From an archaeon (GTDB taxonomy: Archaea; Nanobdellota; Nanobdellia; SCGC-AAA011-G17; GW2011-AR17): a stretch of 64,000 bases of DNA. A program made the translations under genes and the position numbers. A model generated the notes under the pieces. That model did no database searches and had not been told where the DNA came from. It saw only the letters and a program-made list of their open reading frames with translations. This document shows positions 9,435-50,532 of the stretch, piece after piece. Position 1 is the stretch's first letter, and the number at the start of each line of letters is the position of its first letter. Location: the NCBI GenBank assembly GCA_043825775.1, contig JBDRRK010000012.1, positions 129,237 to 193,236 on the forward strand, written 5' to 3'.

Positions 9435-10064
9435 TTATCTTAATGTTTTTACAATTTCTTTGTTAAAGATGTATTCTGCTCCTTTTTCATTAATTCTCAG
9501 AATATCTATTCCATCTCCTGTTGCTAGGTCTCTATCTATTGCTGTTGAAATTGCTTTTATTGCTATTTCTTTTCCTTCTTCTGTTGTAAGTCCTTTCTTA
9601 TATAATGTTTCCATAACACCTAGAGCGATTATACTTCCACTTCCATCTGAAGCATAATCATCTACTTCTAATACAGAACCATCAAATGCAATTTCATATA
9701 ATTGATAGCTTTCCTTTTCATCCCAACCACCAAATAAGAATCCTACAATTCCTGGAATCATACTAGGTCTTCTAATATTAGAATATGCTAAATTCGCTAG
9801 TAAATTTGCTGATTCTCTTACTTGTGGTTCTTTACCTTTTCTTAGTTTTAAAAGCATAATTTGTGCTTTGATTATTTTTGTGAAAAGTTGAATATCACTA
9901 ACCAACCCTGCTGTAGTTAGACCCATATGCTCACTTATTGGTAAAACTTTTTTTACTCTTTTGTTTGCAATTAGGTAGCCTGCGCTAACCCTTCTATCTG
10001 CTGCCATTATTATACCGTCTTTACATACGATTCCTAGTGTAGTAGTACCTTTTTTAGCTTCCAT
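9435..10064 (-). CDS. psmB: proteasome subunit beta
   Basis: TTTLGIVCKDGIIMAADRR... Ntn-hydrolase threonine motif and length typical of the archaeal 20S beta subunit. Confidence 0.9.
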   Translation of the reverse strand: MEAKKGTTTLGIVCKDGIIMAADRRVSAGYLIANKRVKKVLPISEHMGLTTAGLVSDIQLFTKIIKAQIMLLKLRKGKEPQVRESANLLANLAYSNIRRPSMIPGIVGFLFGGWDEKESYQLYEIAFDGSVLEVDDYASDGSGSIIALGVMETLYKKGLTTEEGKEIAIKAISTAIDRDLATGDGIDILRINEKGAEYIFNKEIVKTLR

Positions 10065-10123
10065 TATAACACCCCAAATGTTTTGAGAATAAGTCTCATT
10101 TGATATATTTAAACATAAATCAC

Positions 10124-11344
10124 TTATTTATAAACTTTTCGTATGTTTAAGGATGAAACTTTTGAATTTACATATTCATCAGATGTTAGAGCCATTAGTA
10201 GATCTTCTGCGTGAGTATAGTCTCTTTGTTTCATTACATAACTAATGTCTTTTTCATATTTTACTTTTCCCCATTTGTTTTTGAAATTATCTAATCTTTC
10301 TTTATGTTTTTTACTAGGTCCATAATGTTTTATTGTAGGGGATAGTTTTAATTCTTTTACTGCAAACCAGAATAATGCATCTCCTTCCCAATTCCATCCA
10401 GATTCTACAATTTCAAAATTATTTAATCTTAATTGTTTTTCAAGGTATTGGTGACATTTTAATAGCTTTGCTCCAACAACATCTCTTTTCCCATCTAATG
10501 GTTTTATTTCTAGTAGGAATAGTTTTGCATGTTTTTTTTCTAGTTTTTCTAAATTGAATTTGTCTTTTTGAAAGAAATTTATTTTATTTTTTGATTTTAA
10601 GTATTTTTTTGCCATTTCTTTAAATAATAGAAATTTTTCTTGGCTTACTACTGATGTTACATTCCTAGTTTCTTGTACTGGGTCTATTAAAATAATTGGT
10701 GAATCTATTTTGGATTTATTTAATTCTAGAAGTATGTTCTTTTTTTTGTAATGGTTTTCTGTGTCTATAATTACTTTAGGTTTCCATTTTGTTGCTGCTT
10801 TAAGGAGTTTTTCAAAAGATCCATAATGTATTGTTAATATTTCTAAGGAGTATCCTGAAAACCCCTTTATGAATGATTCAGCTCCATAGATTTCATTAGC
10901 TTTTGCAAATGCTTTTGTTAATCTTATTTGATTTGTTTTTTTCTTATGTTTTCTTACCCATGTTATGTGTAATGGGGAGATATCAGTTATGTTGTGTGCA
11001 TCATCTGCTTTTTTTATGTCAATTATAGGTATTACTTCAATATCAAAATTATTATACTTAAACTGAAAGTAATCTCTTGAACCATGTAATAGATTTAATC
11101 CTTTAAATTTTAACTTTCTCTTTAGAATTTCAGATATGTTTAATCCAGCATATTTGTTTTCTTTGAATTTTACATAGATATCAATGTCATGATTGTCTTT
11201 TAAATGGGTTCCTTTTGCTGAACTTCCACCCATTATTACTTTTGTATAGGGTATTTTAATTTTTTTCTTTATTTCATTGAAAGTTTTTTTTAATTCTTTT
11301 TCTTCTTTTTCAGAAGGTTGTATCATTGATAAAATTCTTTTCAT
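10124..11344 (-). CDS. cca: CCA-adding tRNA nucleotidyltransferase (archaeal class I)
   Basis: GGSSAKGTHLKDNHDIDIYV nucleotidyltransferase motif and ~400-aa length. Confidence 0.75.
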   Translation of the reverse strand: MKRILSMIQPSEKEEKELKKTFNEIKKKIKIPYTKVIMGGSSAKGTHLKDNHDIDIYVKFKENKYAGLNISEILKRKLKFKGLNLLHGSRDYFQFKYNNFDIEVIPIIDIKKADDAHNITDISPLHITWVRKHKKKTNQIRLTKAFAKANEIYGAESFIKGFSGYSLEILTIHYGSFEKLLKAATKWKPKVIIDTENHYKKKNILLELNKSKIDSPIILIDPVQETRNVTSVVSQEKFLLFKEMAKKYLKSKNKINFFQKDKFNLEKLEKKHAKLFLLEIKPLDGKRDVVGAKLLKCHQYLEKQLRLNNFEIVESGWNWEGDALFWFAVKELKLSPTIKHYGPSKKHKERLDNFKNKWGKVKYEKDISYVMKQRDYTHAEDLLMALTSDEYVNSKVSSLNIRKVYK

Positions 11345-31972: not shown

Positions 31973-32356
31973 ATGAGAGGCACTGTTTATGACAAGATGA
32001 GGGTTTTGAAAGAAGGCCTGAAAAAGGAGTTCAAGTGGCTGAAAGATAGGGAGATGTTTGGGGCAATGTCAAAGCTAAGTTCATGGCATTACCCAAATAA
32101 AAGAACCAAGACAATGAAGCTGACAAATCAGGAGGCAATGATCTACGAGTTTCTGTTGAAGAACAACTATAATCCTTCAACCTGCTACAAGTGGATGCTT
32201 GCCTGCTGTACAAACGAGGATCTGCAGAAAAAGCTGATGAAAGGAGAAATCAGCATGAAGAAAGCAATACAGCAACCTTATGGCAAACTCTCGCAGACAG
32301 AGCAGGAATTCTTGTACCAGATAAAATTATGCATTAAAAAATATGTAATAAGGTGA
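31973..32356 (+). CDS. hypothetical protein (first gene of the integrase operon; track ORF starts at GTG 31958)
   Basis: The ATG at 31973 is preceded by GAGGAGG. Visibly G+C-richer codon usage than the host genes. Confidence 0.45.
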   Translation: MRGTVYDKMRVLKEGLKKEFKWLKDREMFGAMSKLSSWHYPNKRTKTMKLTNQEAMIYEFLLKNNYNPSTCYKWMLACCTNEDLQKKLMKGEISMKKAIQQPYGKLSQTEQEFLYQIKLCIKKYVIR

Positions 32357-33183
32357 TAAACATGAAAACAAAATATGCACAGGACAGAGGGGAGAACAAG
32401 CCCTTTACTTGTTCAAAGAAAAAGCTTCCCTATGTTCCCACAAGGGAGGAAATCTTGAAACTATTGGCTTATGCAGATGATGTTAGATTGGGATTTTCAA
32501 TATTTGTCAGTGTTTTTCAAGGTTTACGAATTGGGGAAACTGCGAAATTAAAATGGAGCAATGTTGACTTAATTAATGGCGAAATAAGAATTATTGATGG
32601 AAAAAATACAAGAAGGTATAAGTCAGGCTATGGAAAAGACAGGATAGTTCCGATAAATGAGATGTTCTTGTATATATGGAAGGCTTGGAGATTAATGAAT
32701 CCAGATCAGGAGTATGTTCTTCCAAGTGATGATAGGTTTGGAGTAAGGGCTGATTACAAGAATATAGTTAGACAGATACAGAAGAAATTGTTTAGTTCCC
32801 TGAAAAAAGCTGAATTGTTACAAGTTGATTATTATCAAAAGGATGGCAAGCCAAGATACAGATATCACACGCATTCTTTTAGGCATGTTTGTGGCACTAA
32901 CTTAAGAAGAGCTGGAATGAGGATTGAGGATATTCGAGATTTTCTTGGGCATGATGACATTGATACGACACAGGTTTACACTGAATTAACTAAAGATGAT
33001 CTAAGAGAAGTAAGCCATACTGCTTATGCTTATCCTAAAAGCAGTTTAGGATTACCTAAAGTGGAGATAAGTGTTGACAAGGAAACCTTGCTTTTACAGA
33101 GAGAGATTATTGAGAAGCAGTTGGAATTGGCAAAAATGCAGATGATTGGAAAAAGGGAGGTTGAAATCTATGCGGATATGTAA
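32353..33183 (+). CDS. tyrosine recombinase / integrase (second copy)
   Basis: HTHSFRHVCGTNLRRAGMRIEDIRDFLGHDDIDTTQVYTEL catalytic region. Overlaps the upstream ORF by 4 nt. Confidence 0.85.
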   Translation: MINMKTKYAQDRGENKPFTCSKKKLPYVPTREEILKLLAYADDVRLGFSIFVSVFQGLRIGETAKLKWSNVDLINGEIRIIDGKNTRRYKSGYGKDRIVPINEMFLYIWKAWRLMNPDQEYVLPSDDRFGVRADYKNIVRQIQKKLFSSLKKAELLQVDYYQKDGKPRYRYHTHSFRHVCGTNLRRAGMRIEDIRDFLGHDDIDTTQVYTELTKDDLREVSHTAYAYPKSSLGLPKVEISVDKETLLLQREIIEKQLELAKMQMIGKREVEIYADM

Positions 33184-33475
33184 CAACAAAAGGTATGAAA
33201 ATGAATTTGTCAAGAAGATGATTGATGAAGGACATCATTGTGAGAGAGTAGCTGGTAGTGGTTCAGGTAGAAATGCAGTTTGTGATTGTGTTTTATTTAA
33301 GGAAGGCAAGGTGTACTTAGTTGAGGTCAAGGCAACAAAAGAGAAAAAATTCTATTTTAGGGCTGGAATTAAACAGCAGTTGGACATTATGTCGAATATT
33401 GCAAGAAAGTCGAACGTTGGGGCTTTATTGGCCATCAAATTCAAACACAGAGGCTGGGAGATCATGGAATTATGA
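33170..33475 (+). CDS. Hjc-like Holliday junction resolvase (PD-(D/E)xK)
   Basis: E-x(n)-D-x(n)-EVK arrangement: HCERVAGSGSG ... DCVLFKEGKVYLVEVKATKE. Small size (~100 aa) matches archaeal Hjc/Hje. Confidence 0.55.
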   Translation: MRICNNKRYENEFVKKMIDEGHHCERVAGSGSGRNAVCDCVLFKEGKVYLVEVKATKEKKFYFRAGIKQQLDIMSNIARKSNVGALLAIKFKHRGWEIMEL

Positions 33476-40959: not shown

Positions 40960-41220
40960 ATGGAAAAAGAGATGGTCAATGCTATTTCATTGCTAAAATC
41001 AAGTAAATATAGATTTAAGATTACTAAAGCAATAGATAATAATACTCTTACTCCTTCTGAAATAGCAAATAAAACCCAAATAAGACTTAATCACGTAAGT
41101 ATGTTCTTGAGAGAACTAAAAGACAATAAATTAGTTAAATGCCTAAATGAAAAAAGTAGAAAAGGAAGGCTATATGAATTAACAGAACTAGGTAAAAATG
41201 CAATCAAAAAACTCAATTAA
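40960..41220 (+). CDS. small winged-HTH regulator, controller (C-protein)-like, of the restriction-modification system
   Basis: 86-aa HTH protein (LTPSEIANKTQIRLNHVSMFLRELKDNKLV) immediately upstream of and overlapping the MTase gene. Confidence 0.5.
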   Translation: MEKEMVNAISLLKSSKYRFKITKAIDNNTLTPSEIANKTQIRLNHVSMFLRELKDNKLVKCLNEKSRKGRLYELTELGKNAIKKLN

Positions 41221-42478
41221 ATTCAAAGATGAATCTTGGGACTTTAGAAAAGGTGATACCAAATACAGTAATCATGGTATTCATACTTATCCTGCTATGA
41301 TGATACCCCAAATAGCTAGAAGATTAATTGAAATGTATGGAAAAGGTTCAAAAGTAATTTTAGATCCATTTATGGGTTCTGGAACCGCTTTACTCGAAGC
41401 TACATTGCATAATAATTTTATAAAAGCTTATGGTATTGATATTAACCCTCTTGCATTATTAATTGCAAAAGCTAAAACAACACCAATTGATCCAAATAAA
41501 CTTCTTGTAGAATATAACAGATTAATCGCAGATAGTGTTAGTGAAAAAAAGAAAGTCATGTTTGAGGGAAAGAAAATTAACAAACCTAATTTTTTTAATA
41601 TTGATTTCTGGTTTAAACCTGATGTGATTACAGATTTAGCAATAATAAAAGATAGCATTAATAATATTTCTAATGAAACAACAAAAAACTTTTTCTTGGT
41701 GGCTTTTTCCGAAACTGTTAGAAATGTATCAAATACAAGAAATAGGGAATTCAAGCTTTATAGAATGAGTCCTGCAATGTTAGAAAAACATAATCCTGAT
41801 ACATTTAATGAATTCAAAGAAAGAGTCAGACTTAATTTAGCAAAGATGGATGAATTTACAAAAGAAGTAAATAAAAATTGTCAAGTAAATGTCCTTGATG
41901 AAGACACAAGAAACATCAAGTCAATAAAAGATCAAGAAGTGGATTTAATTGTTACTTCCCCACCTTATGGTGATAGTAGAACAACTGTGGCTTATGGCCA
42001 ATTTTCAAGGTTAGCTTTGCAATGGATTGGTTTTGATAAAAAAACAGTAATTGATATTGATAAAATTAGTTTGGGTGGGATTCCTACAAAAGAACTTCAA
42101 GTTAATCTAGAATCACCAACATTAAAAAAAATAATAGAAGAAATCGCAAAAGAAGATTCAAAAAGAGCAAAGGATGTCTTAAGTTTTTATGTTGATTTTG
42201 ATAAATGCATAAAAGAATTGCATAGAGTAACCAAAGATGGAGCTTATTTATGTTTTGTTGTGGGAAACAGGACAGTTAAAGGAATACAAATACCTACCGA
42301 TGATATAATTGTCGAGTTATTTAAGTCTAAAAATAATTATCAACATATTAATACCTTTATTAGGAATATTCCACATAAAAGAATGCCTAAGAAAAATAGC
42401 CCAACAAATAAGATTGGTAAACTTTCAAATACAATGAATGAAGAGTGGATTATTATTCTTCAAAAGAAAAAACATTAA
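41198..42478 (+). CDS. DNA methyltransferase (N4-C/N6-A family, alpha-type order I-TRD-IV)
   Basis: N-terminal HTYPAMMIPQIARRLIEMY ... DPFMGSGT (motif I) and VTSPPYG (motif IV) ~190 aa later. This is the PF01555-type MTase family to which M.MvaI and M.BcnI belong. Confidence 0.8.
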   Translation: MQSKNSIKFKDESWDFRKGDTKYSNHGIHTYPAMMIPQIARRLIEMYGKGSKVILDPFMGSGTALLEATLHNNFIKAYGIDINPLALLIAKAKTTPIDPNKLLVEYNRLIADSVSEKKKVMFEGKKINKPNFFNIDFWFKPDVITDLAIIKDSINNISNETTKNFFLVAFSETVRNVSNTRNREFKLYRMSPAMLEKHNPDTFNEFKERVRLNLAKMDEFTKEVNKNCQVNVLDEDTRNIKSIKDQEVDLIVTSPPYGDSRTTVAYGQFSRLALQWIGFDKKTVIDIDKISLGGIPTKELQVNLESPTLKKIIEEIAKEDSKRAKDVLSFYVDFDKCIKELHRVTKDGAYLCFVVGNRTVKGIQIPTDDIIVELFKSKNNYQHINTFIRNIPHKRMPKKNSPTNKIGKLSNTMNEEWIIILQKKKH

Positions 42479-43215
42479 AGAATAATTTCTTTCTTTTCAT
42501 AGAGTTTATCTAAATGATTTCTGGATAATCTAAATCCTGGACCATGATCTCTAACAAAGAAATTACCTTTTCCCTGAGTCCTTTCTCTAATATCCATTCT
42601 AAACTCCCAAACCATTAATCCTTCTTTTAATAAAAGTTCGAATGCTTTTTCTGTCATTTTTGTTAACAAAATAGCGCTAGAATAATTAAAATATTCGCCA
42701 TCTTTTTCCATCTTCCTAAATGCCAATACCATTAACAGGTTTTCATGTAACTTCTTCTTTAAAATAGCCATTAATTCTTCAATCTTGAAAAAAGAAACTA
42801 CTCCACCTTCTTTGTGAACAATATTCAATTTGTTATTTTCCTCATCTAATTCTAGTTTAAACCCTTGCTCATTAAATCCATCTACTTTTAGAGTTGTCTT
42901 TAATGCTTTTCTTCCTTTAATGTCTTTATAACCATATTTTTCTATTATTTGCTTTGCACTTAATGGAGACCAATGAGGAACTTTTGTAAACAAAGTAACT
43001 CTAGAAGAAGCATCAATCCTTTGTGCTTTTAATTCTACAGGTATACCATTATATGAAAGATCAGGCTCTCCAAGATTATTTTCTTTAATTCCTAGCATAG
43101 TTTCAAGAGTATATCCTATTCCAGTGTTATCTTTTCTTAAAGATTTAACAAACCCTTTATCTTTTAGTTCTTTTAACTTCTCTTTTATATCAATTTCAAT
43201 TAATCCTTCTGCCAT
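42475..43215 (-). CDS. type II restriction endonuclease, MvaI/BcnI-like (tentative)
   Basis: Convergent with the MTase and overlapping it by 4 nt. GIGYTLETMLGIKENNLGEPDL...IPVELKAQR resembles the MvaI_BcnI family N-terminal motif. Confidence 0.45.
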   Translation of the reverse strand: MAEGLIEIDIKEKLKELKDKGFVKSLRKDNTGIGYTLETMLGIKENNLGEPDLSYNGIPVELKAQRIDASSRVTLFTKVPHWSPLSAKQIIEKYGYKDIKGRKALKTTLKVDGFNEQGFKLELDEENNKLNIVHKEGGVVSFFKIEELMAILKKKLHENLLMVLAFRKMEKDGEYFNYSSAILLTKMTEKAFELLLKEGLMVWEFRMDIRERTQGKGNFFVRDHGPGFRLSRNHLDKLYEKKEIIL

Positions 43216-43356: not shown

Positions 43357-43515
43357 ATGAACTGTAGGATATGTAAAAAGAAACTCGAGGCAAAGGAAGG
43401 AACCCTCTGTAGAACATGTATTAGGTTCTTCAAATGGAAATACCGGACTCTTGAGAAATTCCGAGCATCCTACAGTTCAGCCCTTAAAGCCGATGGAGGT
43501 AATCAAGATGACTGA
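43357..43515 (+). CDS. 52-aa zinc-ribbon protein (first gene of the transfer-module operon)
   Basis: MNCRICKKKLEAKEGTLCRTCIRFFKWKYRTLEKFRASYSSALKADGGNQDD with CxxC...CxxC. Its end overlaps the start of the next gene. Not in the ORF track. Confidence 0.4.
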   Translation: MNCRICKKKLEAKEGTLCRTCIRFFKWKYRTLEKFRASYSSALKADGGNQDD

Positions 43516-43738
43516 ACTTCTGAATGGAATATTAATGGGAGTTTTCTTTTCCCTGCTTATGGTGGACACTGTTCTTCTGTTAATGTATCTAATGAAGAAA
43601 TCAAAGAAAAATCCGAAGAAAAAAATTCCCCAAGTCGCACCAAAACAGGAAACTAAACCTGTGAAGGAAAAGAAGGATATTTTTCTTGGATTTAGAAATT
43701 TATTCCCTAAAAAACTTAAAGGAGGTAAAGAACAATGA
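43508..43738 (+). CDS. small single-TM protein with a basic tail (track ORF 43451..43738, start moved to the SD-preceded ATG)
   Basis: GGAGGT lies 7 nt before ATG 43508. Product is MTELLNGILMGVFFSLLMVDTVLLLMYLMKKSKKNPKKK.... Confidence 0.4.
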   Translation: MTELLNGILMGVFFSLLMVDTVLLLMYLMKKSKKNPKKKIPQVAPKQETKPVKEKKDIFLGFRNLFPKKLKGGKEQ

Positions 43739-44070
43739 AATTGGCGCCGATTTTATTTTTGTTGCTTTTGTTGGTAACATTAGCAACGCCCTTAGTTGCA
43801 GCTGCGATTGATTTTGATGAAGAATTGACACAGGAGGAAGAAGATACTTTTGATGCAATTTTAGCACCTATAATGAAAGTATACAACTTTATCAAGTATG
43901 CTATGTCTGTTGTAGCAGTTTTAATGCTAGTATTTGCAGGTATTACTTTTGTAACTGCTGGCGGAGAAACGGGTAAGAAAGAAAAAGCAAAGAATATGAT
44001 GGTAGGAGTTGTGATTGGATTAATAATAATCTGGGTTGCACCTTTGGTTGTGGAGTATATCTTTACATGA
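43735..44070 (+). CDS. VirB2/TrbC-pilin-like or CedA1-like small membrane protein
   Basis: Long Sec signal (MKLAPILFLLLLLVTLATPLVAAA), an acidic segment, then two TM helices separated by a short K-rich loop, at 111 aa. GGAGGT Shine-Dalgarno and an ATGA overlap with the flanking genes. Confidence 0.4.
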   Translation: MKLAPILFLLLLLVTLATPLVAAAIDFDEELTQEEEDTFDAILAPIMKVYNFIKYAMSVVAVLMLVFAGITFVTAGGETGKKEKAKNMMVGVVIGLIIIWVAPLVVEYIFT

Positions 44071-46109
44071 AACCATTTATTTTTGTGGGAGTGATTCTTT
44101 TATTACTCCCATTTTCTTTAGCTTTTGATTGTTCTCTTACTTATGATGAAGATTATTGCCTTGAAATTATAAATTCTGAGTTAAATGAAACTGAAAAAGA
44201 TTTAGTGTTATCTTCTTTATTGTATGCTGATAATAAGTTTCCAAATTACGAATTTATCGAAGAGTATAATTTAGATATAGAGGTTGATGCTCCACCAGAT
44301 AATACTGCTATATATAATTCTGCTCAAATAAAAAATGCTTGGTTGAGTTTTTTAATTGTTTTTCCCTCTATTTATGAAGAAGAAATACTCTATGTTCCTT
44401 ATTATATCAATGTTTTGAGTGAATATAATTATGAAGTTGAGATACCAACTGAAACAAGAGCTGGAGATTGTAGGACTGAATATGAATTAGTTCAAAACAA
44501 TGTAGAGGTTTATTATTATCTTAATAATCTTTTAAAAGGCTCTGGAAAAACTGACTCTTTTGCTTCTAATGATGGAACATTAACAGCAGAACTAAATATT
44601 AACACAAGAATAAAAGTAGATCATTATAGAACACAAACTTACTGCTGTGGGTGGGCTGATTGGCAACAAATAAACTGTGATAGATACTGCACAAGATGTG
44701 TTTATTCCCATACTGATTATGAAGATGATTCAATACAGATTACAGAGGAGAAAAACATTACTCTATATACTGAAGAGCCTTTTGTTAATTTAACTGTTGT
44801 AAATGAGTATTGGAATACAACCAAAGGCATATTTACAGCAGAAAATTACAGCTATTTTGAATTAAATTTTGAAGATTCTTATATTTCCAAACAGAATTAT
44901 TATTATGATCTTGTTTTTGAGAAAAAACCCTACTATATTGCTTACATAAGAGCTAATAATTTCAGCCATACTGCACTAAGTAATCTCTTCTTAGATAACA
45001 ATACCTTTTTTGTAAAAAATACTGAAAATTGCAGTTTATTTGCTTTTAATCACTTCTATAATTTTACTTCTGGATGCGATTTAACTCTTTATCAGGAAAA
45101 TCTAGAAGAATTGAGCATGGAAGAGGGAAATATTAATCTAACTTTTATTTTTTATATAATAATTTTTTTAATAGTAATCTATACAATTTACATACTTCTT
45201 AAATCACAGGCACGAAAGATAATAATTCCTTTATTTTTTATTTTATTATTGCTTCCTCTTGTTTCTGCAGCAGAAGAAGAATGTGGAATAACTAACTTGG
45301 CTTCATGCATTCCTGAAAAGATTTATGATTTTTTTATTAATCTGATAAACCAACCAATTTTACCAACTTTAAGTGCAATTGAATCATTACTTACTGCTGA
45401 AGGAAATATAGATTTATTTTATCATTTATGGAGTGTAATAAGATATATCATGAGCTTCTTTTACATATTTTTCTTTGTCTATGTAGGTTATGTATTTCTA
45501 ATGTCTAATGATAATCCAATCAAAAGAGCACATGCCAAAGAGATGCTAAAGAATACTTTTTTGATGATTATGTTAATTCAAGGTTCATTTTTCATTTATG
45601 GTTTAGCTTTAGATGTAAATAGTGCTTTGAGTAGTGCAATACTAACAATGGTTGATCCAACTTTCTTCTTAATTACTGCCGACAACATTGTAAATATTGG
45701 CTTAGAGTTTATGCTGACATGGACATACTCTTTTATTTTGTTTATAACAATGTTAATGTTGGTTTTAAGATATATGGTAGTCTGTTTTGGAGTTGTGATA
45801 TTCCCCATAGGATTGTTTTGTTATTTTATCCCTCCCATGAAAGCCATTGGAAAGTTTCTTATTTCTTTTTTAGCCATATTTATCTTTGTAACTTTCTTTG
45901 ATTTATTGATTATAGTAGCTTGTTCATACTTAGTTGATATTCCTCTATTTGAAAATTTTAAGATTTGTGTTATGATTATGTGTTTTGGTATTATCATTTA
46001 CACTCTCTGGTTTGCGATTAAATTTACCCTGAGAATGTCTACAAATGTTTCAATCAAGGATGATTTGAATCAGGCTGTAAAATATGTTGCTATGGTTGCT
46101 GCTGTTTAA
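44067..46109 (+). CDS. large polytopic membrane protein with Cys-rich, N-glycosylation-sequon-rich ectodomain (VirB6/TrbL-like candidate)
   Basis: Signal/TM start, ~330-aa extracytoplasmic region with about 14 Cys and ~10 N-x-S/T sequons, then ~8 TM helices over ~330 aa. Confidence 0.45.
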   Translation: MKPFIFVGVILLLLPFSLAFDCSLTYDEDYCLEIINSELNETEKDLVLSSLLYADNKFPNYEFIEEYNLDIEVDAPPDNTAIYNSAQIKNAWLSFLIVFPSIYEEEILYVPYYINVLSEYNYEVEIPTETRAGDCRTEYELVQNNVEVYYYLNNLLKGSGKTDSFASNDGTLTAELNINTRIKVDHYRTQTYCCGWADWQQINCDRYCTRCVYSHTDYEDDSIQITEEKNITLYTEEPFVNLTVVNEYWNTTKGIFTAENYSYFELNFEDSYISKQNYYYDLVFEKKPYYIAYIRANNFSHTALSNLFLDNNTFFVKNTENCSLFAFNHFYNFTSGCDLTLYQENLEELSMEEGNINLTFIFYIIIFLIVIYTIYILLKSQARKIIIPLFFILLLLPLVSAAEEECGITNLASCIPEKIYDFFINLINQPILPTLSAIESLLTAEGNIDLFYHLWSVIRYIMSFFYIFFFVYVGYVFLMSNDNPIKRAHAKEMLKNTFLMIMLIQGSFFIYGLALDVNSALSSAILTMVDPTFFLITADNIVNIGLEFMLTWTYSFILFITMLMLVLRYMVVCFGVVIFPIGLFCYFIPPMKAIGKFLISFLAIFIFVTFFDLLIIVACSYLVDIPLFENFKICVMIMCFGIIIYTLWFAIKFTLRMSTNVSIKDDLNQAVKYVAMVAAV

Positions 46110-46151: not shown

Positions 46152-47120
46152 ATGGAAAAGGTTATCTTTGATAAGAATTTATTATTAAATCCTGAAATAT
46201 TAAAAGAACAATTAGTATTCCCTAAAGATTCTAAGATTGCAATAAAAATGCATATGGGGGAAGAGAATAATAAAACTTGTTTGAGAGCTGAAGATGTTAA
46301 GCCAATTGTAGATGTTTTACTTGAATTAGGAACTAAACCATTTATTATAGATACTCCTGTGTCCTATAAGGGTGGACGTCATACTTGTGAAGCCTATTTG
46401 AAAACTGCTAAGGATAATGGGTTTTCTGAAGAAACTATTGGTTGTCCTATTGTAATTTCAAATGATTATCATGAAGTAAGAACTGAATATATGGATTTTC
46501 AAGTATGTAAGGAACTTTATGAAACAGAGTATATGATTGTTTTATCTCATGTTAAGGGGCATTGTTGTACTGGATTTGGTGGAGCTATTAAGAATTTGTC
46601 TATGGGTGGAGCAACTATAAAGTCTAAAAGAGATATGCATTCTTTAGGAAAACCAGATATTCTTAAAGAGTGTAGTTTGTGTGGTATTTGTGAGAAAAAC
46701 TGCCCTGCAAAGTGTATTAAGATTGATGATAAATTGAATATTAATTTAGATGGTTGTTGGGGCTGTGGTGTTTGTGTTGTTAATTGTCCTGAAAAGATTT
46801 TGAAACCTAAAACTGTGTTAATTGATGAGTTACTTGCTGAAGGTGCTTGGGCTAGTGTGCAGAATAAGAAGAAGATTTTATGTATCAATATGATTAAGAG
46901 GATTACTAAACTTTGTGATTGTGAGTCTGATTCTGGTAAGATTATTGCTCCTGATGTTGGAGTGTTGTTTTCTAGTGATCCAGTTGCAATTGATCAGGCT
47001 TCTATTGATTTGGTTGGAGATGCTTTTTTGAAAGAGAATCATAAGGATCCTCAGTTGCAGATTGATTATTCTGAGAAGTTGGGTTTTGGTGGGAAGGATT
47101 ATGAATTGGTAAAGGTTTAA
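46152..47120 (+). CDS. DUF362-domain protein with 2x[4Fe-4S] ferredoxin domain
   Basis: CSLCGICEKNCP and CWGCGVCVVNCP dicluster motifs inside a DUF362-like fold. Confidence 0.65.
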   Translation: MEKVIFDKNLLLNPEILKEQLVFPKDSKIAIKMHMGEENNKTCLRAEDVKPIVDVLLELGTKPFIIDTPVSYKGGRHTCEAYLKTAKDNGFSEETIGCPIVISNDYHEVRTEYMDFQVCKELYETEYMIVLSHVKGHCCTGFGGAIKNLSMGGATIKSKRDMHSLGKPDILKECSLCGICEKNCPAKCIKIDDKLNINLDGCWGCGVCVVNCPEKILKPKTVLIDELLAEGAWASVQNKKKILCINMIKRITKLCDCESDSGKIIAPDVGVLFSSDPVAIDQASIDLVGDAFLKENHKDPQLQIDYSEKLGFGGKDYELVKV

Positions 47121-47365
47121 TATTTTAATTTTAAATATAATTCATATAAAACAATAATTCCAAAAATACTATTCATAATTATAATTGGAAGGCTAGAAAT
47201 AAGAAATCCATACGCTATCCAGAACCCTGTTCCTATTAATGTAGCTAGAATCATATTTAATGCAAGGTCTTGAACTTTTTTGGTCTTATATGATTTGATT
47301 ACTTGTGGAATAAAACTAACCATAATAAAAATCCCACCTAAATAACCTATTATATCTTCGATCAT
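47117..47365 (-). CDS. SemiSWEET (PQ-loop / MtN3-like 3-TM sugar transporter)
   Basis: 82 aa with 3 TM helices and the PQ motif in TM1 (SFIPQVIKSYKTKKVQDLAL). Confidence 0.6.
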   Translation of the reverse strand: MIEDIIGYLGGIFIMVSFIPQVIKSYKTKKVQDLALNMILATLIGTGFWIAYGFLISSLPIIIMNSIFGIIVLYELYLKLKY

Positions 47366-47499: not shown

Positions 47500-50400
47500 A
47501 TGGGCTACGATATCCCCCCACCATTAGAACATAAGGAAAAGATAATGTTTGGTTTAACATTCTCACAGTTAGCTTATGCTTTTCCTGCTTTTCTGATTAT
47601 TTTCTTTTTAGTATTTAGAATGAATCTACCCATTACAGTTTCAGGAACAATATCTTTAATTGTTGCATTTACTGCAGCCTTCTTTATGTTTTTTGATGGA
47701 TTGAACAAAATAAGAAACTGGTATAATTATTTCAAGAATCCTCAAGTCAAGGTTTTAAGCAAGTTATTAAAACAAATTGTAGATATCAAGAAAATAAAAG
47801 ATGATGTTGTCCACCAATCTAAAGTTCAGTTAGCAATAATAGAAGTAATACCAATGAACTTCATGCTAAAGACAGAAGAGGAAAAGGAATCAATAATAAT
47901 CGGATTTCAAAAATTTCTTAATTCTTTAGACTTCCCTATTCAAATACATATTTCAAGCAATCCAATAAGTTTAAGTGAGCATTTCAGCTATACAGACAAG
48001 AAAGCAAAGGAAAAAGATTTGAAAGAATTGGTTGATTCATATTGTGGTTTTGTAAGGAAATCAATAGAAGACAATAACATACAGAACAGGAACTTCTACA
48101 TTATAATCAAAGAAAAAGACAACCTTGACATACAGGTAAAGATCTGCTGTGAAGGATTAAAATCTTTAGGATTAAAAATAAAAAGATTGAATGACAAGGC
48201 ACTAACCGAATTGTTTCATAATTATATAGCCAATAAAAAACAAAAGGATTTTCAAGAAGAAGTAAAGGATATAGCTCATTTCTTATTCTCTCCAGAAAAA
48301 ATAATGTTTCATCCTGATCATTTTGAAGTGGATGATACTTTTTGTAGAGTAATTTCAGTAACAGGTTATCCACATTCTGTTGAGATGGGTTTTTTGGATA
48401 AGCTAATAAGTTCTGGAGAAAAATATGACATCAGCATACATATTGAGCCTTTCCCAATTGAGATTACAATGATTGAATTAAATAGGGATTTACAAAAACA
48501 ACAGTCCGATTTATATGCAGATTCAAAAAAAGGCATCATAAACCCATCTTTAGAAATCAAATACAAATGCACAAGAAAAGTTTTAGAGGATTTGCAGAAA
48601 GGTAAACAAAAACTCTTTAATGTTTCTCTATATGTAATGTGCAGAGGAAAGGATAAAAAAGAAATTGATCTGTTAGCAAAAAAAATTAAAGCTGATTTAG
48701 ATGGGTTGATGATACAAAGCAAAGCCCCCATGTTTCAAATGATGGAATCGTATGCTTCAATGCTTCCTCTGGCTAATAATAAATTAAAAGTTAAAAGAAA
48801 TATTCACACAGAAGGATTGGCTGCATTTTTTCCTTTCTCTTCTCCTTTTTTGGATATTGAAAATGATGGTATCTTATTGGGCTGGAACAAGAATAAAATC
48901 CCATTTATCAAGAATGTTTTCAACCTTGCTAATGCAAATGGTATTATCTTAGCTACATCCGGCTCAGGAAAGAGTTATTTCACTAAATTGCTCCTTTCTA
49001 GGCAATATATGAATGGATGTGATATAATAATCATTGATCCACAAGGCGAGTATTTGGCGATCACAGAGCACTATAAGGGCGAGTCTATAACCATTTCCAA
49101 GAACTCCAAGACAATGATTAATCCATTAGATCTGATGGGGCATGAATACCTAGAGAAAAGGCTGTCTTTGATAGATTTATTCAAGATTATGTTTGGAGAT
49201 TTAAACGAGTTACAGCAGTCTATCTTGGACAAGGCCATTGACACGACTTATGAAAATCATGGAATTACAAGGGATGATTACGAAAGCCACGAACCTCCTG
49301 TCATGAGTGATTTATTTGATACTTTGCAGAAATTAGAGAAGACAGCAGTTCAGCAGGAAAAGGTTACTTATAGAGCCTTAATGAATAGGATTCAGATGTA
49401 TACAAAGAAAGGAGTCTTTGGTTTTCTTGATAGAAAAACAGAGATTAACTTTGAAAATAAATTTGTATGTTTTAATATTGGTTCAATGCCTAAACAAGTC
49501 AAGCCAGTTATTATGTTTCTTGTTTTAGATTTTGTTTTTATGAGAATGAAAGAGACAAGTAGAAGAAAATTATTGGTGATAGATGAGGCTTGGGCTATGC
49601 TTCAGACAGCAGAGGAATCCTCTTATGTTTTTGAAATTGTGAAGACTTGTCGGAAGTATAATTTGGGAATGTTAATGATTACTCAGGATGTTGCTGACTT
49701 AGTTGGTTCCAAGGCAGGTCACGCAGTCTTGGCAAACACATCTTATACTTTTCTATTAAGACAAAAGCCTGCTGTGATTCAGAATGTTGCAAGAACTTTT
49801 AATTTAAGCAATGCTGAAAAGGAGTTTTTAATTTCAGCTAAGTTAGGAAATGGTATTTTGATTTTGGAGAATGAACATCAGGAGTTGGAAGTCATAGCCT
49901 CCCCTGTTGAACATGAATTGATAACAACAAACCCTGATGAGTTGATTAAATTAACTGAGAGAAAAAAGCATGAACCTAAAGTTAAAAAGGAATCTGAAAC
50001 AGCTGACTTGGATTTGAACAAGGCAGTATTTTCACCTAAAGGTCTGACAGCTCTACAGGTTAATGTCCTGAACAATCATGAATATGTCTTGAAAAAGTTC
50101 CATGATTTAGAAACTGGACCTCGGCCTTACTATGTCAAGGCCCGCCACCCTGAATCAGTGGATCATACCTTCTTGGTTGAGATTATTGCAGATGAAATCA
50201 AGAAATACACCAAAGAGGTGGAGGTCTACCAAACCAAAAATGCTGACATTATTTTCAAGAACAAAGTCGGCCAGAAAATAGCCTTGGAAATAGAGACTGG
50301 AAAGGAATTTGACAAACATCAGAAAAGACTTGAAGAGAAGTTTGAAAACCTAAGAAAAACCATGGGTGGAAGGGTTTATATAATTTTAACAGATACATCT

Positions 50401-50532
50401 ATAAAAAATAGATACCTTAGATTTAACACTCAAATATTGAGTAGAAATAAAATTAAAGAGTTTGTAAAGTTACAATTTAGTGGAAATAAGAACTCTTATA
50501 TAGGGGGGATTTTAAACTTGACGAGTAGCTAA
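47500..50532 (+). CDS. VirB4/TrbE/CagE-family DNA-transfer ATPase with N-terminal TM helices and a ~190-aa C-terminal extra domain
   Basis: Two N-terminal TM helices (VirB3-like). Walker A ATSGSGKSYFT, Walker B/DEAW box LLVIDEAWAML, then ITQDVADL, at 1010 aa. The C-terminal region has a D-x12-LEIE arrangement reminiscent of PD-(D/E)xK. Confidence 0.8.
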   Translation: MGYDIPPPLEHKEKIMFGLTFSQLAYAFPAFLIIFFLVFRMNLPITVSGTISLIVAFTAAFFMFFDGLNKIRNWYNYFKNPQVKVLSKLLKQIVDIKKIKDDVVHQSKVQLAIIEVIPMNFMLKTEEEKESIIIGFQKFLNSLDFPIQIHISSNPISLSEHFSYTDKKAKEKDLKELVDSYCGFVRKSIEDNNIQNRNFYIIIKEKDNLDIQVKICCEGLKSLGLKIKRLNDKALTELFHNYIANKKQKDFQEEVKDIAHFLFSPEKIMFHPDHFEVDDTFCRVISVTGYPHSVEMGFLDKLISSGEKYDISIHIEPFPIEITMIELNRDLQKQQSDLYADSKKGIINPSLEIKYKCTRKVLEDLQKGKQKLFNVSLYVMCRGKDKKEIDLLAKKIKADLDGLMIQSKAPMFQMMESYASMLPLANNKLKVKRNIHTEGLAAFFPFSSPFLDIENDGILLGWNKNKIPFIKNVFNLANANGIILATSGSGKSYFTKLLLSRQYMNGCDIIIIDPQGEYLAITEHYKGESITISKNSKTMINPLDLMGHEYLEKRLSLIDLFKIMFGDLNELQQSILDKAIDTTYENHGITRDDYESHEPPVMSDLFDTLQKLEKTAVQQEKVTYRALMNRIQMYTKKGVFGFLDRKTEINFENKFVCFNIGSMPKQVKPVIMFLVLDFVFMRMKETSRRKLLVIDEAWAMLQTAEESSYVFEIVKTCRKYNLGMLMITQDVADLVGSKAGHAVLANTSYTFLLRQKPAVIQNVARTFNLSNAEKEFLISAKLGNGILILENEHQELEVIASPVEHELITTNPDELIKLTERKKHEPKVKKESETADLDLNKAVFSPKGLTALQVNVLNNHEYVLKKFHDLETGPRPYYVKARHPESVDHTFLVEIIADEIKKYTKEVEVYQTKNADIIFKNKVGQKIALEIETGKEFDKHQKRLEEKFENLRKTMGGRVYIILTDTSIKNRYLRFNTQILSRNKIKEFVKLQFSGNKNSYIGGILNLTSS

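What the first reader, a model, noticed from the sequence alone, without database searches (positions are those of the whole stretch)
49960..50532. Extra C-terminal ~190-aa domain on the VirB4 ATPase with a nuclease-like (PD-(D/E)xK-reminiscent) motif arrangement
After the canonical VirB4 ATPase core ends (around ...LILENEHQELEVIASPVEHELITTNPDELIKL), the protein continues for ~190 aa. That tail contains ...HPESVDHTFLVEIIADEIKK...EVYQTKNADIIFKNKVGQKIALEIETGKEF.... An Asp on a hydrophobic beta-strand is followed ~12 residues later by hLEhE, the spacing seen in Hjc/restriction-endonuclease folds (compare DCVLF...LVEVK in the Hjc-like protein at 33170-33475). A fused nuclease-like domain could replace a separate relaxase or processing enzyme in this system.
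Basis: inference. Interest (0 to 1): 0.6.

Follow-up and report, generated by a model that had tools for sequence, protein, structure and literature searches.

The report
Nuclease domain fused to archaeal VirB4
The motor ATPase of a minimal DNA-transfer (type IV secretion-like) machine in a DPANN archaeon carries a conserved extra C-terminal domain with a restriction-endonuclease-like fold; it belongs to no described family and is a testable candidate for the DNA-cutting enzyme that archaeal conjugation has so far lacked.

Summary
ORF 47500..50532 (+, 1010 aa) is a VirB3-VirB4 ATPase. Its core ends at the motif ELITTNPDELIKL (aa 806-818). A K/E-rich linker and a folded ~150-aa module follow.

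AlphaFold2 with 45 diverse homologues gives pLDDT 95.4. The model has a small helix plus beta-hairpin subdomain, then an alpha-beta-beta-beta-alpha-beta core. Foldseek top hits in the PDB and viral libraries are nearly all PD-(D/E)xK nucleases: VC1899/Card1/Can2, NucS/EndoMS, Mus81/XPF and restriction enzymes. The best E-value is only 1.3e-3.

H889, D916 and E932 are invariant in 115 divergent relatives. E885, E930 (E/D) and K947 are nearly invariant. This E...D...ExE pattern resembles BamHI.

No Pfam, NCBIfam, PHROG or PDB sequence family matches, and it is not an Hjc member.

The fusion marks a DPANN VirB4 clade: 89 of 112 relatives that reach the core end carry it. Patescibacteria relatives lack it. 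Free-standing or membrane-anchored copies lie directly behind tyrosine integrases in other DPANN mobile elements.

The window holds no relaxase or VirD4. The best reading is a DNA-processing endonuclease tethered to the translocation motor. Activity and substrate are untested. It is a new variant of known kinds, of moderately high interest.

The parts
47500..50532 (+). Complete ORF (1010 aa + stop): a VirB3-like membrane anchor, the VirB4 ATPase, a linker and the nuclease-like module in one polypeptide
   Evidence: ORF list; Pfam/NCBIfam hits; orthologous fused ORFs of 1010-1044 aa in 7 genome loci
47527..47706 (+). N-terminal PrgI/VirB3-like region (aa 10-69) with two hydrophobic helices
   Evidence: PF12666 PrgI E 2.6e-5, below the gathering cut-off; hydropathy windows at aa ~19-49 and ~43-68
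48925..49851 (+). P-loop ATPase domain of VirB4 (aa 476-784). Walker A is at 48958-48975 and Walker B at 49570-49593
   Evidence: PF19044 E 5.7e-29, DUF87, AAA_10; motif positions
49921..49953 (+). End of the VirB4 core: the conserved motif (L/I)ITTNP(D/N)E and the following LIKL (aa 808-818). Tail-less relatives stop 0-24 aa after the end of the core match (~aa 815-820)
   Evidence: Junction alignment of full-length relatives; tail-less Patescibacteria relatives
49954..50022 (+). Charged, low-complexity linker (aa 819-841; 13 of 23 residues are K/R/E/D), predicted disordered and variable in length and sequence among relatives
   Evidence: pLDDT <50 for tail residues 1-13; composition; junction alignment
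50023..50136 (+). Small N-terminal subdomain of the tail (aa 842-879): a short strand, a helix and a beta-hairpin, with conserved L849, L857, Y862, Y877, K880. It is possibly a DNA-contacting element (inference)
   Evidence: AF2 secondary structure; conservation
50137..50475 (+). PD-(D/E)xK-like nuclease core (aa 880-992). Candidate active-site codons are E885 (50152-50154), H889 (50164-50166), D916 (50245-50247), E930 (50287-50289), E932 (50293-50295) and K947 (50338-50340)
   Evidence: AF2 model pLDDT 95.4 with alpha1-beta1-beta2-beta3-alpha2-beta4 topology; Foldseek PDB/BFVD hits to PD-(D/E)xK nucleases; residue invariance; codon check
50476..50529 (+). C-terminal 18 aa (FSGNKNSYIGGILNLTSS), conserved only among the closest relatives (LQFSGxKNSxIG)
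   Evidence: Alignment A1/A2; not conserved in the 115-sequence set
43735..44070 (+). VirB2/TrbC-like T4SS pilin gene of the same cluster
   Evidence: PF18895 T4SS_pilin E 1.3e-12, PF04956 TrbC; syntenic in 7 related loci
44067..46109 (+). 680-aa polytopic membrane protein, the putative VirB6-like channel component. This label rests on position and topology only and has no family hit
   Evidence: No Pfam hit; always follows the pilin gene and precedes VirB4 in 7 related loci
43451..43738 (+). Small membrane protein gene upstream of the pilin gene; weakly conserved in relatives
   Evidence: phmmer hits in L002, L003, L004

Best explanation
The C-terminal ~170 aa of this VirB4 form a genuine, conserved, probably catalytically active Mg2+-dependent endonuclease of the PD-(D/E)xK superfamily. 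Its active site is a BamHI-like variant: Glu on helix 1, Asp at the start of strand 2, Glu-x-Glu on strand 3, and a conserved Lys on helix 2. A flexible charged linker tethers it to the cytoplasmic end of the VirB3-VirB4 motor. That motor belongs to a minimal, relaxase-less and VirD4-less T4SS (VirB2-like pilin, putative VirB6-like channel, VirB4) in a chromosomal island of a DPANN (Woesearchaeota-type) archaeon. The most likely job is DNA processing at the cytoplasmic mouth of the translocon. It would nick or cut the DNA to be transferred and so provide the single-strand entry point that a relaxase provides in bacteria, probably without covalent attachment, as in MOBC relaxases. Shown here: the fold class, the residue invariance, conservation of the fusion within a VirB4 clade, the genomic contexts, and the absence of relaxase and T4CP in the window. 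Inferred: catalytic activity, DNA as the substrate, the direction of transfer, and the relaxase-like role.
For: The VirB4 core ends at aa ~818 and the tail has no family assignment. AF2 with 45 homologues gives pLDDT 95.4 and pTM 0.89, with an alpha-beta-beta-beta-alpha-beta core. Foldseek top hits are VC1899, EndoMS/NucS, YaeQ, Card1, Can2, Mus81-Eme1, ERCC1, TnsA, EcoRII and PaqCI (probability up to 0.98). In BFVD the top hits are restriction endonucleases, ERCC4, endonuclease I and VRR-NUC. Two of 45 members hit the PADLOC CARF_PDDEXK model (E 7.8e-5). H889, D916 and E932 are invariant in 115/115 sequences; E885 is kept in 111/115, E930 is E or D in 115/115, and K947 is kept in 111/115. These residues sit where the fold places the catalytic residues: before/in alpha1, at the start of beta2, on beta3 and on alpha2. 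The fusion persists down to 31% identity of the VirB4 core. The tail evolves faster than the core (49% vs 76% identity in P0009) while keeping those residues. Of 112 VirB4 ATPase-domain relatives that reach the core end, 89 carry the tail. All 7 genome loci found are DPANN-type MAGs with pilin, putative VirB6-like and VirB4+tail genes in synteny. The window has no relaxase and no VirD4. The literature states that no relaxase is known for archaeal conjugation (PMC9905601, PMC12857230) and that MOBC relaxases are PD-(D/E)xK enzymes with an N-terminal wHTH (PMC12857230). Non-fused copies are often membrane-anchored (46 of 226). They lie directly behind tyrosine integrases in 8 of 10 long contexts. 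That integrase-plus-DNA-processing-enzyme layout resembles bacterial integrative mobilizable elements. A NikA-like RHH protein (a relaxosome accessory type) lies 3-6 kb downstream of VirB4+tail in L005 and L002.
Against: No biochemical data exist for any family member. The structural matches are borderline (best Foldseek E 1.3e-3, TM 0.3-0.45), so the assignment is to a superfamily, not to an enzyme of known specificity. The canonical Lys of (D/E)xK is replaced by Glu. No oriT-like repeat or conserved inverted repeat was found near the cluster. Most integrase-linked free-standing copies have no T4SS genes within 6-8 kb, so the family's function is not strictly tied to secretion. The direction of DNA movement (export or import) is unknown for such minimal archaeal systems; the related Ced system imports DNA (PMC9905601). 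No direct sequence comparison with MOBC relaxases could be made.
Confidence: 0.5

Rival explanations
1. It is an import-side processor or feeding nuclease. The T4SS-like machine takes up DNA, as Ced/Ted do, possibly from a host cell, since DPANN archaea are episymbionts with poor nucleotide synthesis. The motor-tethered nuclease then cuts incoming DNA in the cytoplasm, for recombination or for nucleotide salvage.
For: Minimal VirB2/VirB6/VirB4 archaeal systems (Ced, Ted) are DNA importers (PMC9905601, PMC11868833). The cluster has no relaxase or T4CP. The domain is on the cytoplasmic side, where imported DNA would emerge (inferred from VirB4 topology). The closest structural neighbours, Card1 and Can2, are non-specific ssDNA/ssRNA nucleases or DNA nickases (PDB titles; enzyme properties from my own knowledge).
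Against: The cluster lies in a variable island beside integrases, R-M genes and other mobile-element cargo, not in a housekeeping context. Free-standing copies are tied to integrases rather than to uptake genes. Patescibacteria VirB4 relatives, which share the episymbiotic lifestyle, lack the tail.
Confidence: 0.2
2. It is a recombination accessory of mobile elements, such as a junction-resolving, excision-assisting or replication-initiating nuclease that works with the element's tyrosine integrase. Its fusion to VirB4 would then reflect modular shuffling at the VirB4 3' end rather than a role in transport.
For: In 8 of 10 non-fused contexts the gene lies directly behind a tyrosine integrase, sometimes with overlapping stop and start codons. 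In the window itself another integrase (32353-33183) overlaps an Hjc-like PD-(D/E)xK gene (33146-33475), which is the same layout. P0001 is an in-frame chimera of an integrase N-terminus with the VirB4 end plus tail, which indicates recombination at exactly the core/tail junction. One source named a member 'Holliday junction resolvase' (P0173).
Against: The fusion is kept across a whole VirB4 clade down to 31% core identity, in 89 of 112 relatives. That argues for selection on the physical link to the motor. Forty-six family members are membrane-anchored instead, which a soluble recombination factor would not need. There is no detectable similarity to Hjc.
Confidence: 0.15
3. It is a defence or exclusion nuclease. 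A nuclease placed at the DNA entry/exit port would destroy incoming foreign or competitor DNA, in the manner of entry exclusion or restriction.
For: The nearest sequence and structure neighbours include CRISPR ancillary nucleases (Card1/Can2; PADLOC CARF_PDDEXK). R-M genes flank the cluster.
Against: Only 2 of 45 members touch any PADLOC model, and the window protein touches none. There is no sensor domain (CARF absent) and no immunity or partner gene conserved next to it.
Confidence: 0.1
4. It is a non-catalytic module: a degenerate nuclease fold retained as a DNA-binding or oligomerisation domain that recruits substrate DNA to VirB4, a T4CP-like adaptor role.
For: The canonical Lys is missing from the (D/E)xK position. 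Many PD-(D/E)xK folds are inactivated and used as binding modules (general knowledge). The system lacks a coupling protein.
Against: All acidic positions and a His are invariant over >100 divergent sequences. ExE variants are active in BamHI (own knowledge). A conserved Lys (K947) is available on the adjacent helix.
Confidence: 0.05

Closest known systems
MOBC relaxases (TraX of pAD1, MobC of CloDF13)
   Same: They are PD-(D/E)xK-type DNA-nicking enzymes dedicated to conjugative transfer. They have a small N-terminal DNA-binding (winged HTH) part ahead of the nuclease core, and no covalent DNA intermediate is known (PMC12857230). They are the functional analogue of the role proposed here.
   Different: They are separate soluble proteins of bacterial plasmids and ICEs that work with a VirD4-type coupling protein, and none is known to be fused to VirB4. 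No sequence relationship to the tail was shown: there are no Pfam or NCBIfam hits, and a direct comparison was not possible. The tail's N-terminal subdomain is a helix plus hairpin, not a demonstrated wHTH.
Card1 / Can2 / VC1899 nuclease domains (CARF-PD-(D/E)xK CRISPR ancillary nucleases)
   Same: They are the best structural neighbours (Foldseek probability 0.96-0.98, TM 0.40-0.44) and the only weak sequence link (PADLOC CARF_PDDEXK, E 7.8e-5, 2 of 45 members).
   Different: The tail has no CARF sensor domain and no CRISPR context. These enzymes carry a canonical D...ExK motif, whereas the tail has D...ExE. They are cyclic-oligoadenylate-activated dimers.
NucS/EndoMS C-terminal nuclease domain
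   Same: It is an archaeal PD-(D/E)xK nuclease and ranks second to fourth among the Foldseek hits (E 2.4e-3 to 9e-3).
   Different: NucS has its own N-terminal DNA-binding domain and a PCNA-binding tail, a canonical ExK motif and a mismatch-repair role. The superposition is poor (rmsd ~15 A over the two-domain alignment).
BamHI-type active-site variant of restriction endonucleases
   Same: Both show the pattern Glu (helix), Asp, Glu-x-Glu, with Glu in place of the canonical Lys (BamHI E77, D94, E111, E113; from my own knowledge, not tested here).
   Different: There is no detectable sequence or specific structural relationship, and BamHI does not appear among the 50 best matches listed for the PDB search. 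The resemblance is in motif logic only.
Hjc archaeal Holliday junction resolvase (PF01870)
   Same: It belongs to the same superfamily and has similar D-to-E spacing. An Hjc-like gene sits behind an integrase in this window, just as free-standing tail homologues sit behind integrases elsewhere.
   Different: There is no Pfam Hjc hit, hhalign probability is 0.2%, and no Hjc entry appears among the 50 best PDB matches listed. Hjc has ExK, and lacks both the ES..H helix motif and the N-terminal hairpin subdomain.
Ced/Ted archaeal DNA-transfer systems and MPF_FATA VirB4 ATPases
   Same: They share the minimal VirB2/VirB6/VirB4 parts list and lack a relaxase (PMC9905601). The VirB4 core here is closest to monoderm conjugation ATPases (NCBIfam VirB4_plasma E 1e-100, CD1110 E 6e-95).
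   Different: In the four T4SS/Ced papers I searched for nuclease-related terms (PMC9905601, PMC11868833, PMC12857230, PMC12102498), no nuclease domain is mentioned for CedB, CedD, TedB or bacterial VirB4. The scores here fall below the curated cut-offs of both NCBIfam equivalogs. Patescibacteria relatives end right after the ITTNP motif.

Membership tests
VirB4/TraC-type T4SS ATPase (host protein) | FtsK/HerA-type P-loop ATPase domain with Walker A and B motifs, preceded by the VirB4/TraC N-terminal domain | tested here: met
   PF19044 E 5.7e-29, DUF87, AAA_10, TraC_F_IV; TIGR00929 VirB4_CagE E 4e-40, VirB4_plasma E 1e-100; SGSGKS and LLVIDEAW motifs
VirB4/TraC-type T4SS ATPase (host protein) | Score above the curated cut-off of a named equivalog (Mbov_0397 or CD1110 family) | tested here: not met
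   337.9 bits against a cut-off of 590, and 319.2 bits against 325. It is a VirB4 but belongs to neither named equivalog.
VirB4/TraC-type T4SS ATPase (host protein) | Encoded with other T4SS components | tested here: met
   T4SS_pilin/TrbC gene at 43735-44070. The pilin, polytopic membrane protein and VirB4 order is conserved in 7 loci. The VirB6 identity of the membrane protein is not shown.
PD-(D/E)xK nuclease superfamily (tail) | Core alpha-beta-beta-beta-alpha-beta fold | tested here: met
   The AF2 model (pLDDT 95.4) has elements H50-64, E70-72, E80-83, E89-95, H104-118, E122-126. Foldseek hits in PDB and BFVD are dominated by PD-(D/E)xK nucleases, though the best E-value is only 1.3e-3.
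PD-(D/E)xK nuclease superfamily (tail) | Conserved acidic residue at the start of strand 2 and (D/E)xK on strand 3, often with a Glu on helix 1 | tested here: inconclusive
   D916 is invariant, E930 (E/D) and E932 are invariant, and E885 is kept in 111/115, all in the expected secondary-structure elements. The K position is Glu (ExE), and a candidate relocated Lys (K947, 111/115) lies on helix 2. Model coordinates could not be inspected to confirm that these residues converge.
PD-(D/E)xK nuclease superfamily (tail) | Metal-dependent phosphodiester cleavage | not testable with these tools
   This needs biochemistry.
Hjc Holliday junction resolvase (PF01870) | Sequence match to the Hjc profile or to Hjc proteins | tested here: not met
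   No Hjc hit for the tail or for 45 homologues. hhalign of A3 against the window's Hjc-like protein gives probability 0.2%.
MOBC relaxases | Sequence or profile similarity to TraX/MobC | not tested
   No reference sequence could be obtained: the CloDF13 record (L020) lacks a usable mobC annotation or ORF, and Francia et al. 2013 is not held. The tail has zero NCBIfam hits at E<=1 and no tblastn match in 72,556 plasmids.
MOBC relaxases | Site-specific nicking at an oriT | not testable with these tools
   No oriT-like repeats were recognised. Biochemistry is needed.
Card1/Can2 CARF nucleases | CARF sensor domain fused to the PD-(D/E)xK nuclease domain | tested here: not met
   The tail is preceded by VirB4 rather than CARF. 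Only the nuclease halves align (127-134 columns).

The most novel reading that the evidence does not exclude
This domain family is the missing functional counterpart of the conjugative relaxase in (DPANN) archaea. It would be a PD-(D/E)xK nickase built directly into the VirB4 motor in self-transmissible elements, and encoded as a free-standing or membrane-anchored protein next to the integrase in mobilizable elements that borrow the T4SS. In that case archaeal elements would solve the problem of preparing DNA for transfer with a motor-tethered restriction-fold enzyme instead of a HUH relaxase plus coupling protein.
Probability: 0.25. Interest if true: 0.85.

Novelty: new variant of a known kind. 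Interest (0 to 1): 0.62.

Why it matters
How archaeal conjugative and DNA-exchange systems produce and recruit their DNA substrate is an acknowledged open question. [quoted passage not shown] A conserved, apparently active nuclease domain fused to the only ATPase of a minimal T4SS gives a concrete candidate that can be expressed and tested. The candidate active-site residues (E885, H889, D916, E930, E932, K947) are already defined for mutagenesis.

The work also defines a previously unannotated domain family: at least 437 cluster representatives, with no Pfam, NCBIfam or PDB entry. The family links T4SS motors and tyrosine integrases in DPANN mobile elements. That could help recognise conjugative and mobilizable elements in these poorly annotated genomes.

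Tried and rejected
- **Sequence-family searches of the tail and 45 homologues.** Pfam, NCBIfam, PHROGs, PADLOC and PDB sequences gave nothing significant. There were sporadic sub-threshold hits to RAI1, ERCC4, NERD and pPIWI_RE_REase. DUF6826 was hit by 6 of 45 members (best E 0.007) and was not pursued.
- **Hjc membership.** Rejected.
- **MOBC comparison.** The CloDF13 record lacks usable mobC annotation or an intact ORF, and the TraX paper is not held.
- **tblastn of the domain against plasmids and phages.** No match.
- **IMG/VR scans.** No relatives found.
- **Search for att-like direct repeats bounding the island (28-52.5 kb).** Only short, AT-rich matches that look like chance.
- **Search for inverted repeats or oriT-like structures near the cluster, and the promoter/terminator scan.** Uninformative; the scan uses a bacterial consensus on an archaeal genome.
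- **Reading the adjacent reverse transcriptase in related loci as a group II intron.** Rejected in favour of a diversity-generating retroelement, because TR/VR repeats with adenine-specific mismatches are present.
- **Idea that integrase-linked free-standing copies are displaced 3' ends of interrupted VirB4 genes.** Not supported in general. Host housekeeping genes, not VirB4 cores, lie upstream of the integrases. P0001 and P0064 do carry junction remnants.


Full report
**1. Observation**

The window is archaeal chromosome. It encodes Nre, aCPSF1/FttA, an archaeal CCA-adding enzyme, a thermosome subunit and FtsZ, and a TYW1-like radical-SAM enzyme as judged by eye. G+C is ~30%.

ORF 47500..50532 (+) encodes 1010 aa without interruption. 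Pfam and NCBIfam place a PrgI/VirB3-like segment at aa 10-69, the TraC/VirB4 N-domain, and the P-loop domain at aa 476-784. The longest model alignments end at aa 808-818. Walker A (SGSGKS, aa 487-492) and Walker B (LLVIDEAW, aa 691-698) are intact.

The finding's coordinates, 49960-50532, are codons R821 to stop. The tail alone has no hit in Pfam or NCBIfam above noise, and no PDB sequence hit.

**2. The tail is a real, widespread domain**

A word-indexed search found seven close homologues (44-62% identity), some on VirB4 fragments. An exhaustive HMMER search with their profile found 437 proteins at E<=1e-3 and 243 at E<=1e-10 among 1.84 billion cluster representatives.

In an alignment of 115 of these with the window sequence:
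- H889, D916 and E932 are invariant.
- E885 is kept in 111/115, E930 is E or D in all, and K947 is kept in 111/115.
- T933, G934, Y972 and R982 are nearly invariant.

The family signature is (P/N)ES..H on a helix, then PD(I/V)(I/V)F, then A.E.ETG, then K on the next helix.

**3. Fold**

With the shallow alignment, AF2 gave pLDDT 81.8. With 45 diverse sequences it gave pLDDT 95.4 and pTM 0.89. The first ~13 tail residues are disordered. They belong to a linker of 23 residues, 13 of them charged.

The folded part begins with a short strand, a helix and a beta-hairpin (aa ~842-879). It continues as alpha1, beta1, beta2, beta3, alpha2, beta4, alpha, beta, alpha. The conserved residues fall as follows: E885/H889 at or in alpha1, D916 at the N-terminus of beta2, E930/E932 on beta3, and K947 on alpha2. 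These are the canonical positions of PD-(D/E)xK active sites.

Foldseek against the PDB lists VC1899, EndoMS/NucS, YaeQ, Card1, Can2, ERCC1, Mus81-Eme1, a CdiA-CT toxin, TnsA, PaqCI and EcoRII (best E 1.3e-3, probability 0.98, TM 0.40-0.44). Against viral models it lists restriction endonucleases, ERCC4, endonuclease I, VRR-NUC, Mrr and MmcB-like proteins. Two of 45 members hit the PADLOC CARF_PDDEXK model (E 7.8e-5).

**4. The fusion is a clade character**

Seven genome loci, from MAGs labelled Woesearchaeota or (probably mislabelled) Methanosarcinales, carry VirB4+tail ORFs of 1010-1044 aa. All share the gene order small membrane protein, VirB2-like pilin, ~685-aa polytopic membrane protein, variable insert, VirB4+tail.

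Full-length relatives keep the fusion down to 31% core identity. The tail diverges faster than the core: 49% against 76% in P0009, and 37% against 51% in P0029.

Among the 120 best relatives of the ATPase domain, 112 reach the core end and 89 carry the tail. Most of the 23 without it fall into two groups:
- genes cut by a contig end, and
- Patescibacteria proteins (36-38% identity) and some archaeal ~570-590-aa proteins that stop 0-24 residues after the end of the core.

Two tail-less sequences, P0301 and P0338, run 60 and 131 residues beyond the core and fit neither group. The boundary is always the motif (L/I)ITTNP(D/N)E followed by a variable charged linker.

**5. The domain also exists outside VirB4**

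The 226 family members in hand break down as follows:

| Architecture | Count |
|---|---|
| VirB4-fused | 57 |
| N-terminal transmembrane helices (often plus a coiled coil) | 46 |
| Other N-terminal extensions | 17 |
| Short free-standing | 73 |
| Fragments | 33 |

Ten non-fused members on long contigs were examined.
- In eight, the gene lies directly downstream of a ~390-445-aa tyrosine integrase from three families, sometimes with a 4-bp overlap (L009, L010, L013, L014, L016, L017, L019, L023/24).
- One lies beside a VirB4 gene (L018).
- One lies beside a 1497-aa unknown protein (L021).

Host housekeeping genes flank the integrase on the other side. These are therefore the ends of integrated elements.

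**6. What it most likely does**

*Shown.* The domain is a conserved nuclease-fold module with an invariant acidic/His constellation. It is held at the cytoplasmic side of the membrane in two independent ways, by fusion to the membrane-bound VirB3-VirB4 motor or by its own TM anchor. It is carried by mobile elements next to the two kinds of proteins that handle element DNA, the T4SS motor and the integrase. The window has no relaxase and no VirD4-type coupling protein: no other ORF over 280 aa in the island is an ATPase, and the remaining large ORFs are housekeeping.

*From the literature.* Archaeal conjugative elements have no recognisable relaxase (PMC9905601, PMC12857230). One bacterial relaxase class, MOBC, is itself a PD-(D/E)xK enzyme with an N-terminal DNA-binding domain and no covalent intermediate (PMC12857230).

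*Inferred.* The tail is the DNA-processing endonuclease of this apparatus, cutting or nicking DNA where it enters the translocon. The integrase-plus-domain modules are the counterpart of bacterial integrative mobilizable elements. A NikA-like RHH protein near VirB4+tail in two relatives fits a relaxosome-like set. I put this at about 0.5.

*Rivals.*
- Processing of imported DNA, by analogy with Ced/Ted import and the DPANN lifestyle.
- An integrase-associated recombination or resolution function. The parallel Int-Hjc pair in this window and the P0001 chimera support this.
- Defence or exclusion.
- A non-catalytic adaptor.

None is excluded. Activity, substrate and direction of transfer are untested.

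**7. Novelty**

The four T4SS/Ced papers I searched for nuclease-related terms (PMC9905601, PMC11868833, PMC12857230, PMC12102498) mention no nuclease domain on VirB4, CedB or TedB. A full-text search for VirB4 with 'restriction endonuclease-like' or 'nuclease domain' returned no relevant paper. The domain has no entry in Pfam, NCBIfam, PHROGs or the PDB.

Both building blocks are well known, namely the VirB4 ATPase and the PD-(D/E)xK fold. This is therefore a new variant of known kinds: a new domain family and a new architecture, not a new category.

Interest is moderately high, because it turns the question of which enzyme cuts the DNA in archaeal conjugation into a direct experiment. The organisms are uncultured and all functional statements are inference.

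Noticed in passing
L009:6264-8807; L010:6673-8528; L013:6202-8840; L014:6705-8555; L017:533-2267; L019:4671-6714; L023:4835-6549; L016:2982-6492: Free-standing or TM-anchored homologues of the VirB4 tail lie directly downstream of ~390-445-aa tyrosine integrases (three integrase families) at the edge of integrated elements in DPANN genomes. Stop and start codons often overlap. This is a recurrent integrase+nuclease-fold module.
   Followed up: partly
L012:192-995 (protein P0001): This is an in-frame chimera. The first 58 aa match the N-terminus of the L014/L010-type integrase (50% identity, E 3e-17). They are joined to the last ~20 aa of a VirB4 core (ITTNP motif) plus a complete tail. It looks like a site-specific recombination junction (split int gene?) exactly at the core/tail boundary. 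The TM-anchored P0064 also keeps an 'ITPNADELL' remnant.
   Followed up: partly
L010:8638-10702 (TR 9674-9761, VR 10107-10194); L016:6594-8649 (TR 7680-7748, VR 7996-8064); also L009, L023/L024, L006:10659-11771, L004:4505-6229: A diversity-generating retroelement lies convergently right after the domain gene, whether that gene is free-standing or is VirB4+tail (L006). The RTs are 50-66% identical across loci. The template repeat sits next to the RT and the variable repeat in the 3' end of a ~240-aa gene, with mismatches only at template adenines. No such cassette sits next to VirB4 in the window.
   Followed up: partly
window 32353-33475: A tyrosine integrase gene (32353-33183) overlaps an Hjc-family gene (33146-33475, PF01870 E 6e-14). 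This is the same 'integrase then small PD-(D/E)xK protein' layout seen for the tail homologues elsewhere. The segment has the highest G+C of the window (0.367).
   Followed up: partly
window 46152-47365: A DUF362/4Fe-4S protein gene and a small membrane protein gene on the opposite strand lie between the putative VirB6-like gene and VirB4. Relatives have nothing there (L006, L007), or a UvrD-like helicase (L005), or a DGR RT (L004), or other genes. This is a variable cargo slot inside the T4SS cluster.
   Followed up: partly
window 41198-43215; L003:3124-4047, L007:3790-4719 and equivalents: A DNA methyltransferase always lies just upstream of the T4SS cluster. In the window it is an N6/N4 methylase paired with an MvaI/BcnI-family restriction enzyme. 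In five relatives it is a C5 cytosine methylase.
   Followed up: no
L005:13288-13593 (-); L002:16323-16709 (-): A NikA-like ribbon-helix-helix protein (a relaxosome accessory type, PF21983 E 1.6e-6) lies 3-6 kb downstream of VirB4+tail in two relatives. No homologue was detected in the window.
   Followed up: no
L018:1-3285: In a single-cell DPANN genome, a VirB4 gene (split into two ORFs, running off the contig) lies divergently next to an additional free-standing copy of the tail domain (P0094). A single T4SS locus can therefore hold two copies of the domain.
   Followed up: partly
window 44067-46109 and orthologues (L002:3369-5411, L003:4608-6668, L007:5311-7425): The 680-aa membrane protein has a Cys/Asn-rich N-terminal half and a second signal-like hydrophobic stretch in mid-protein. 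Its orthologues are weakly hit by the VirB2-like pilin in phmmer (E 3e-6 to 9e-4), which suggests a pilin-like segment inside the putative VirB6-like protein.
   Followed up: no
L008 (CAZWRD010000240.1) and L001, L002, L004, L007 record titles: MAGs carrying close relatives of this VirB4 are labelled 'uncultured Bacteroides sp.' or 'Methanosarcinales archaeon'. Given 50-60% identity to Woesearchaeota loci and DPANN-type neighbours, these labels are probably binning or taxonomy errors.
   Followed up: no
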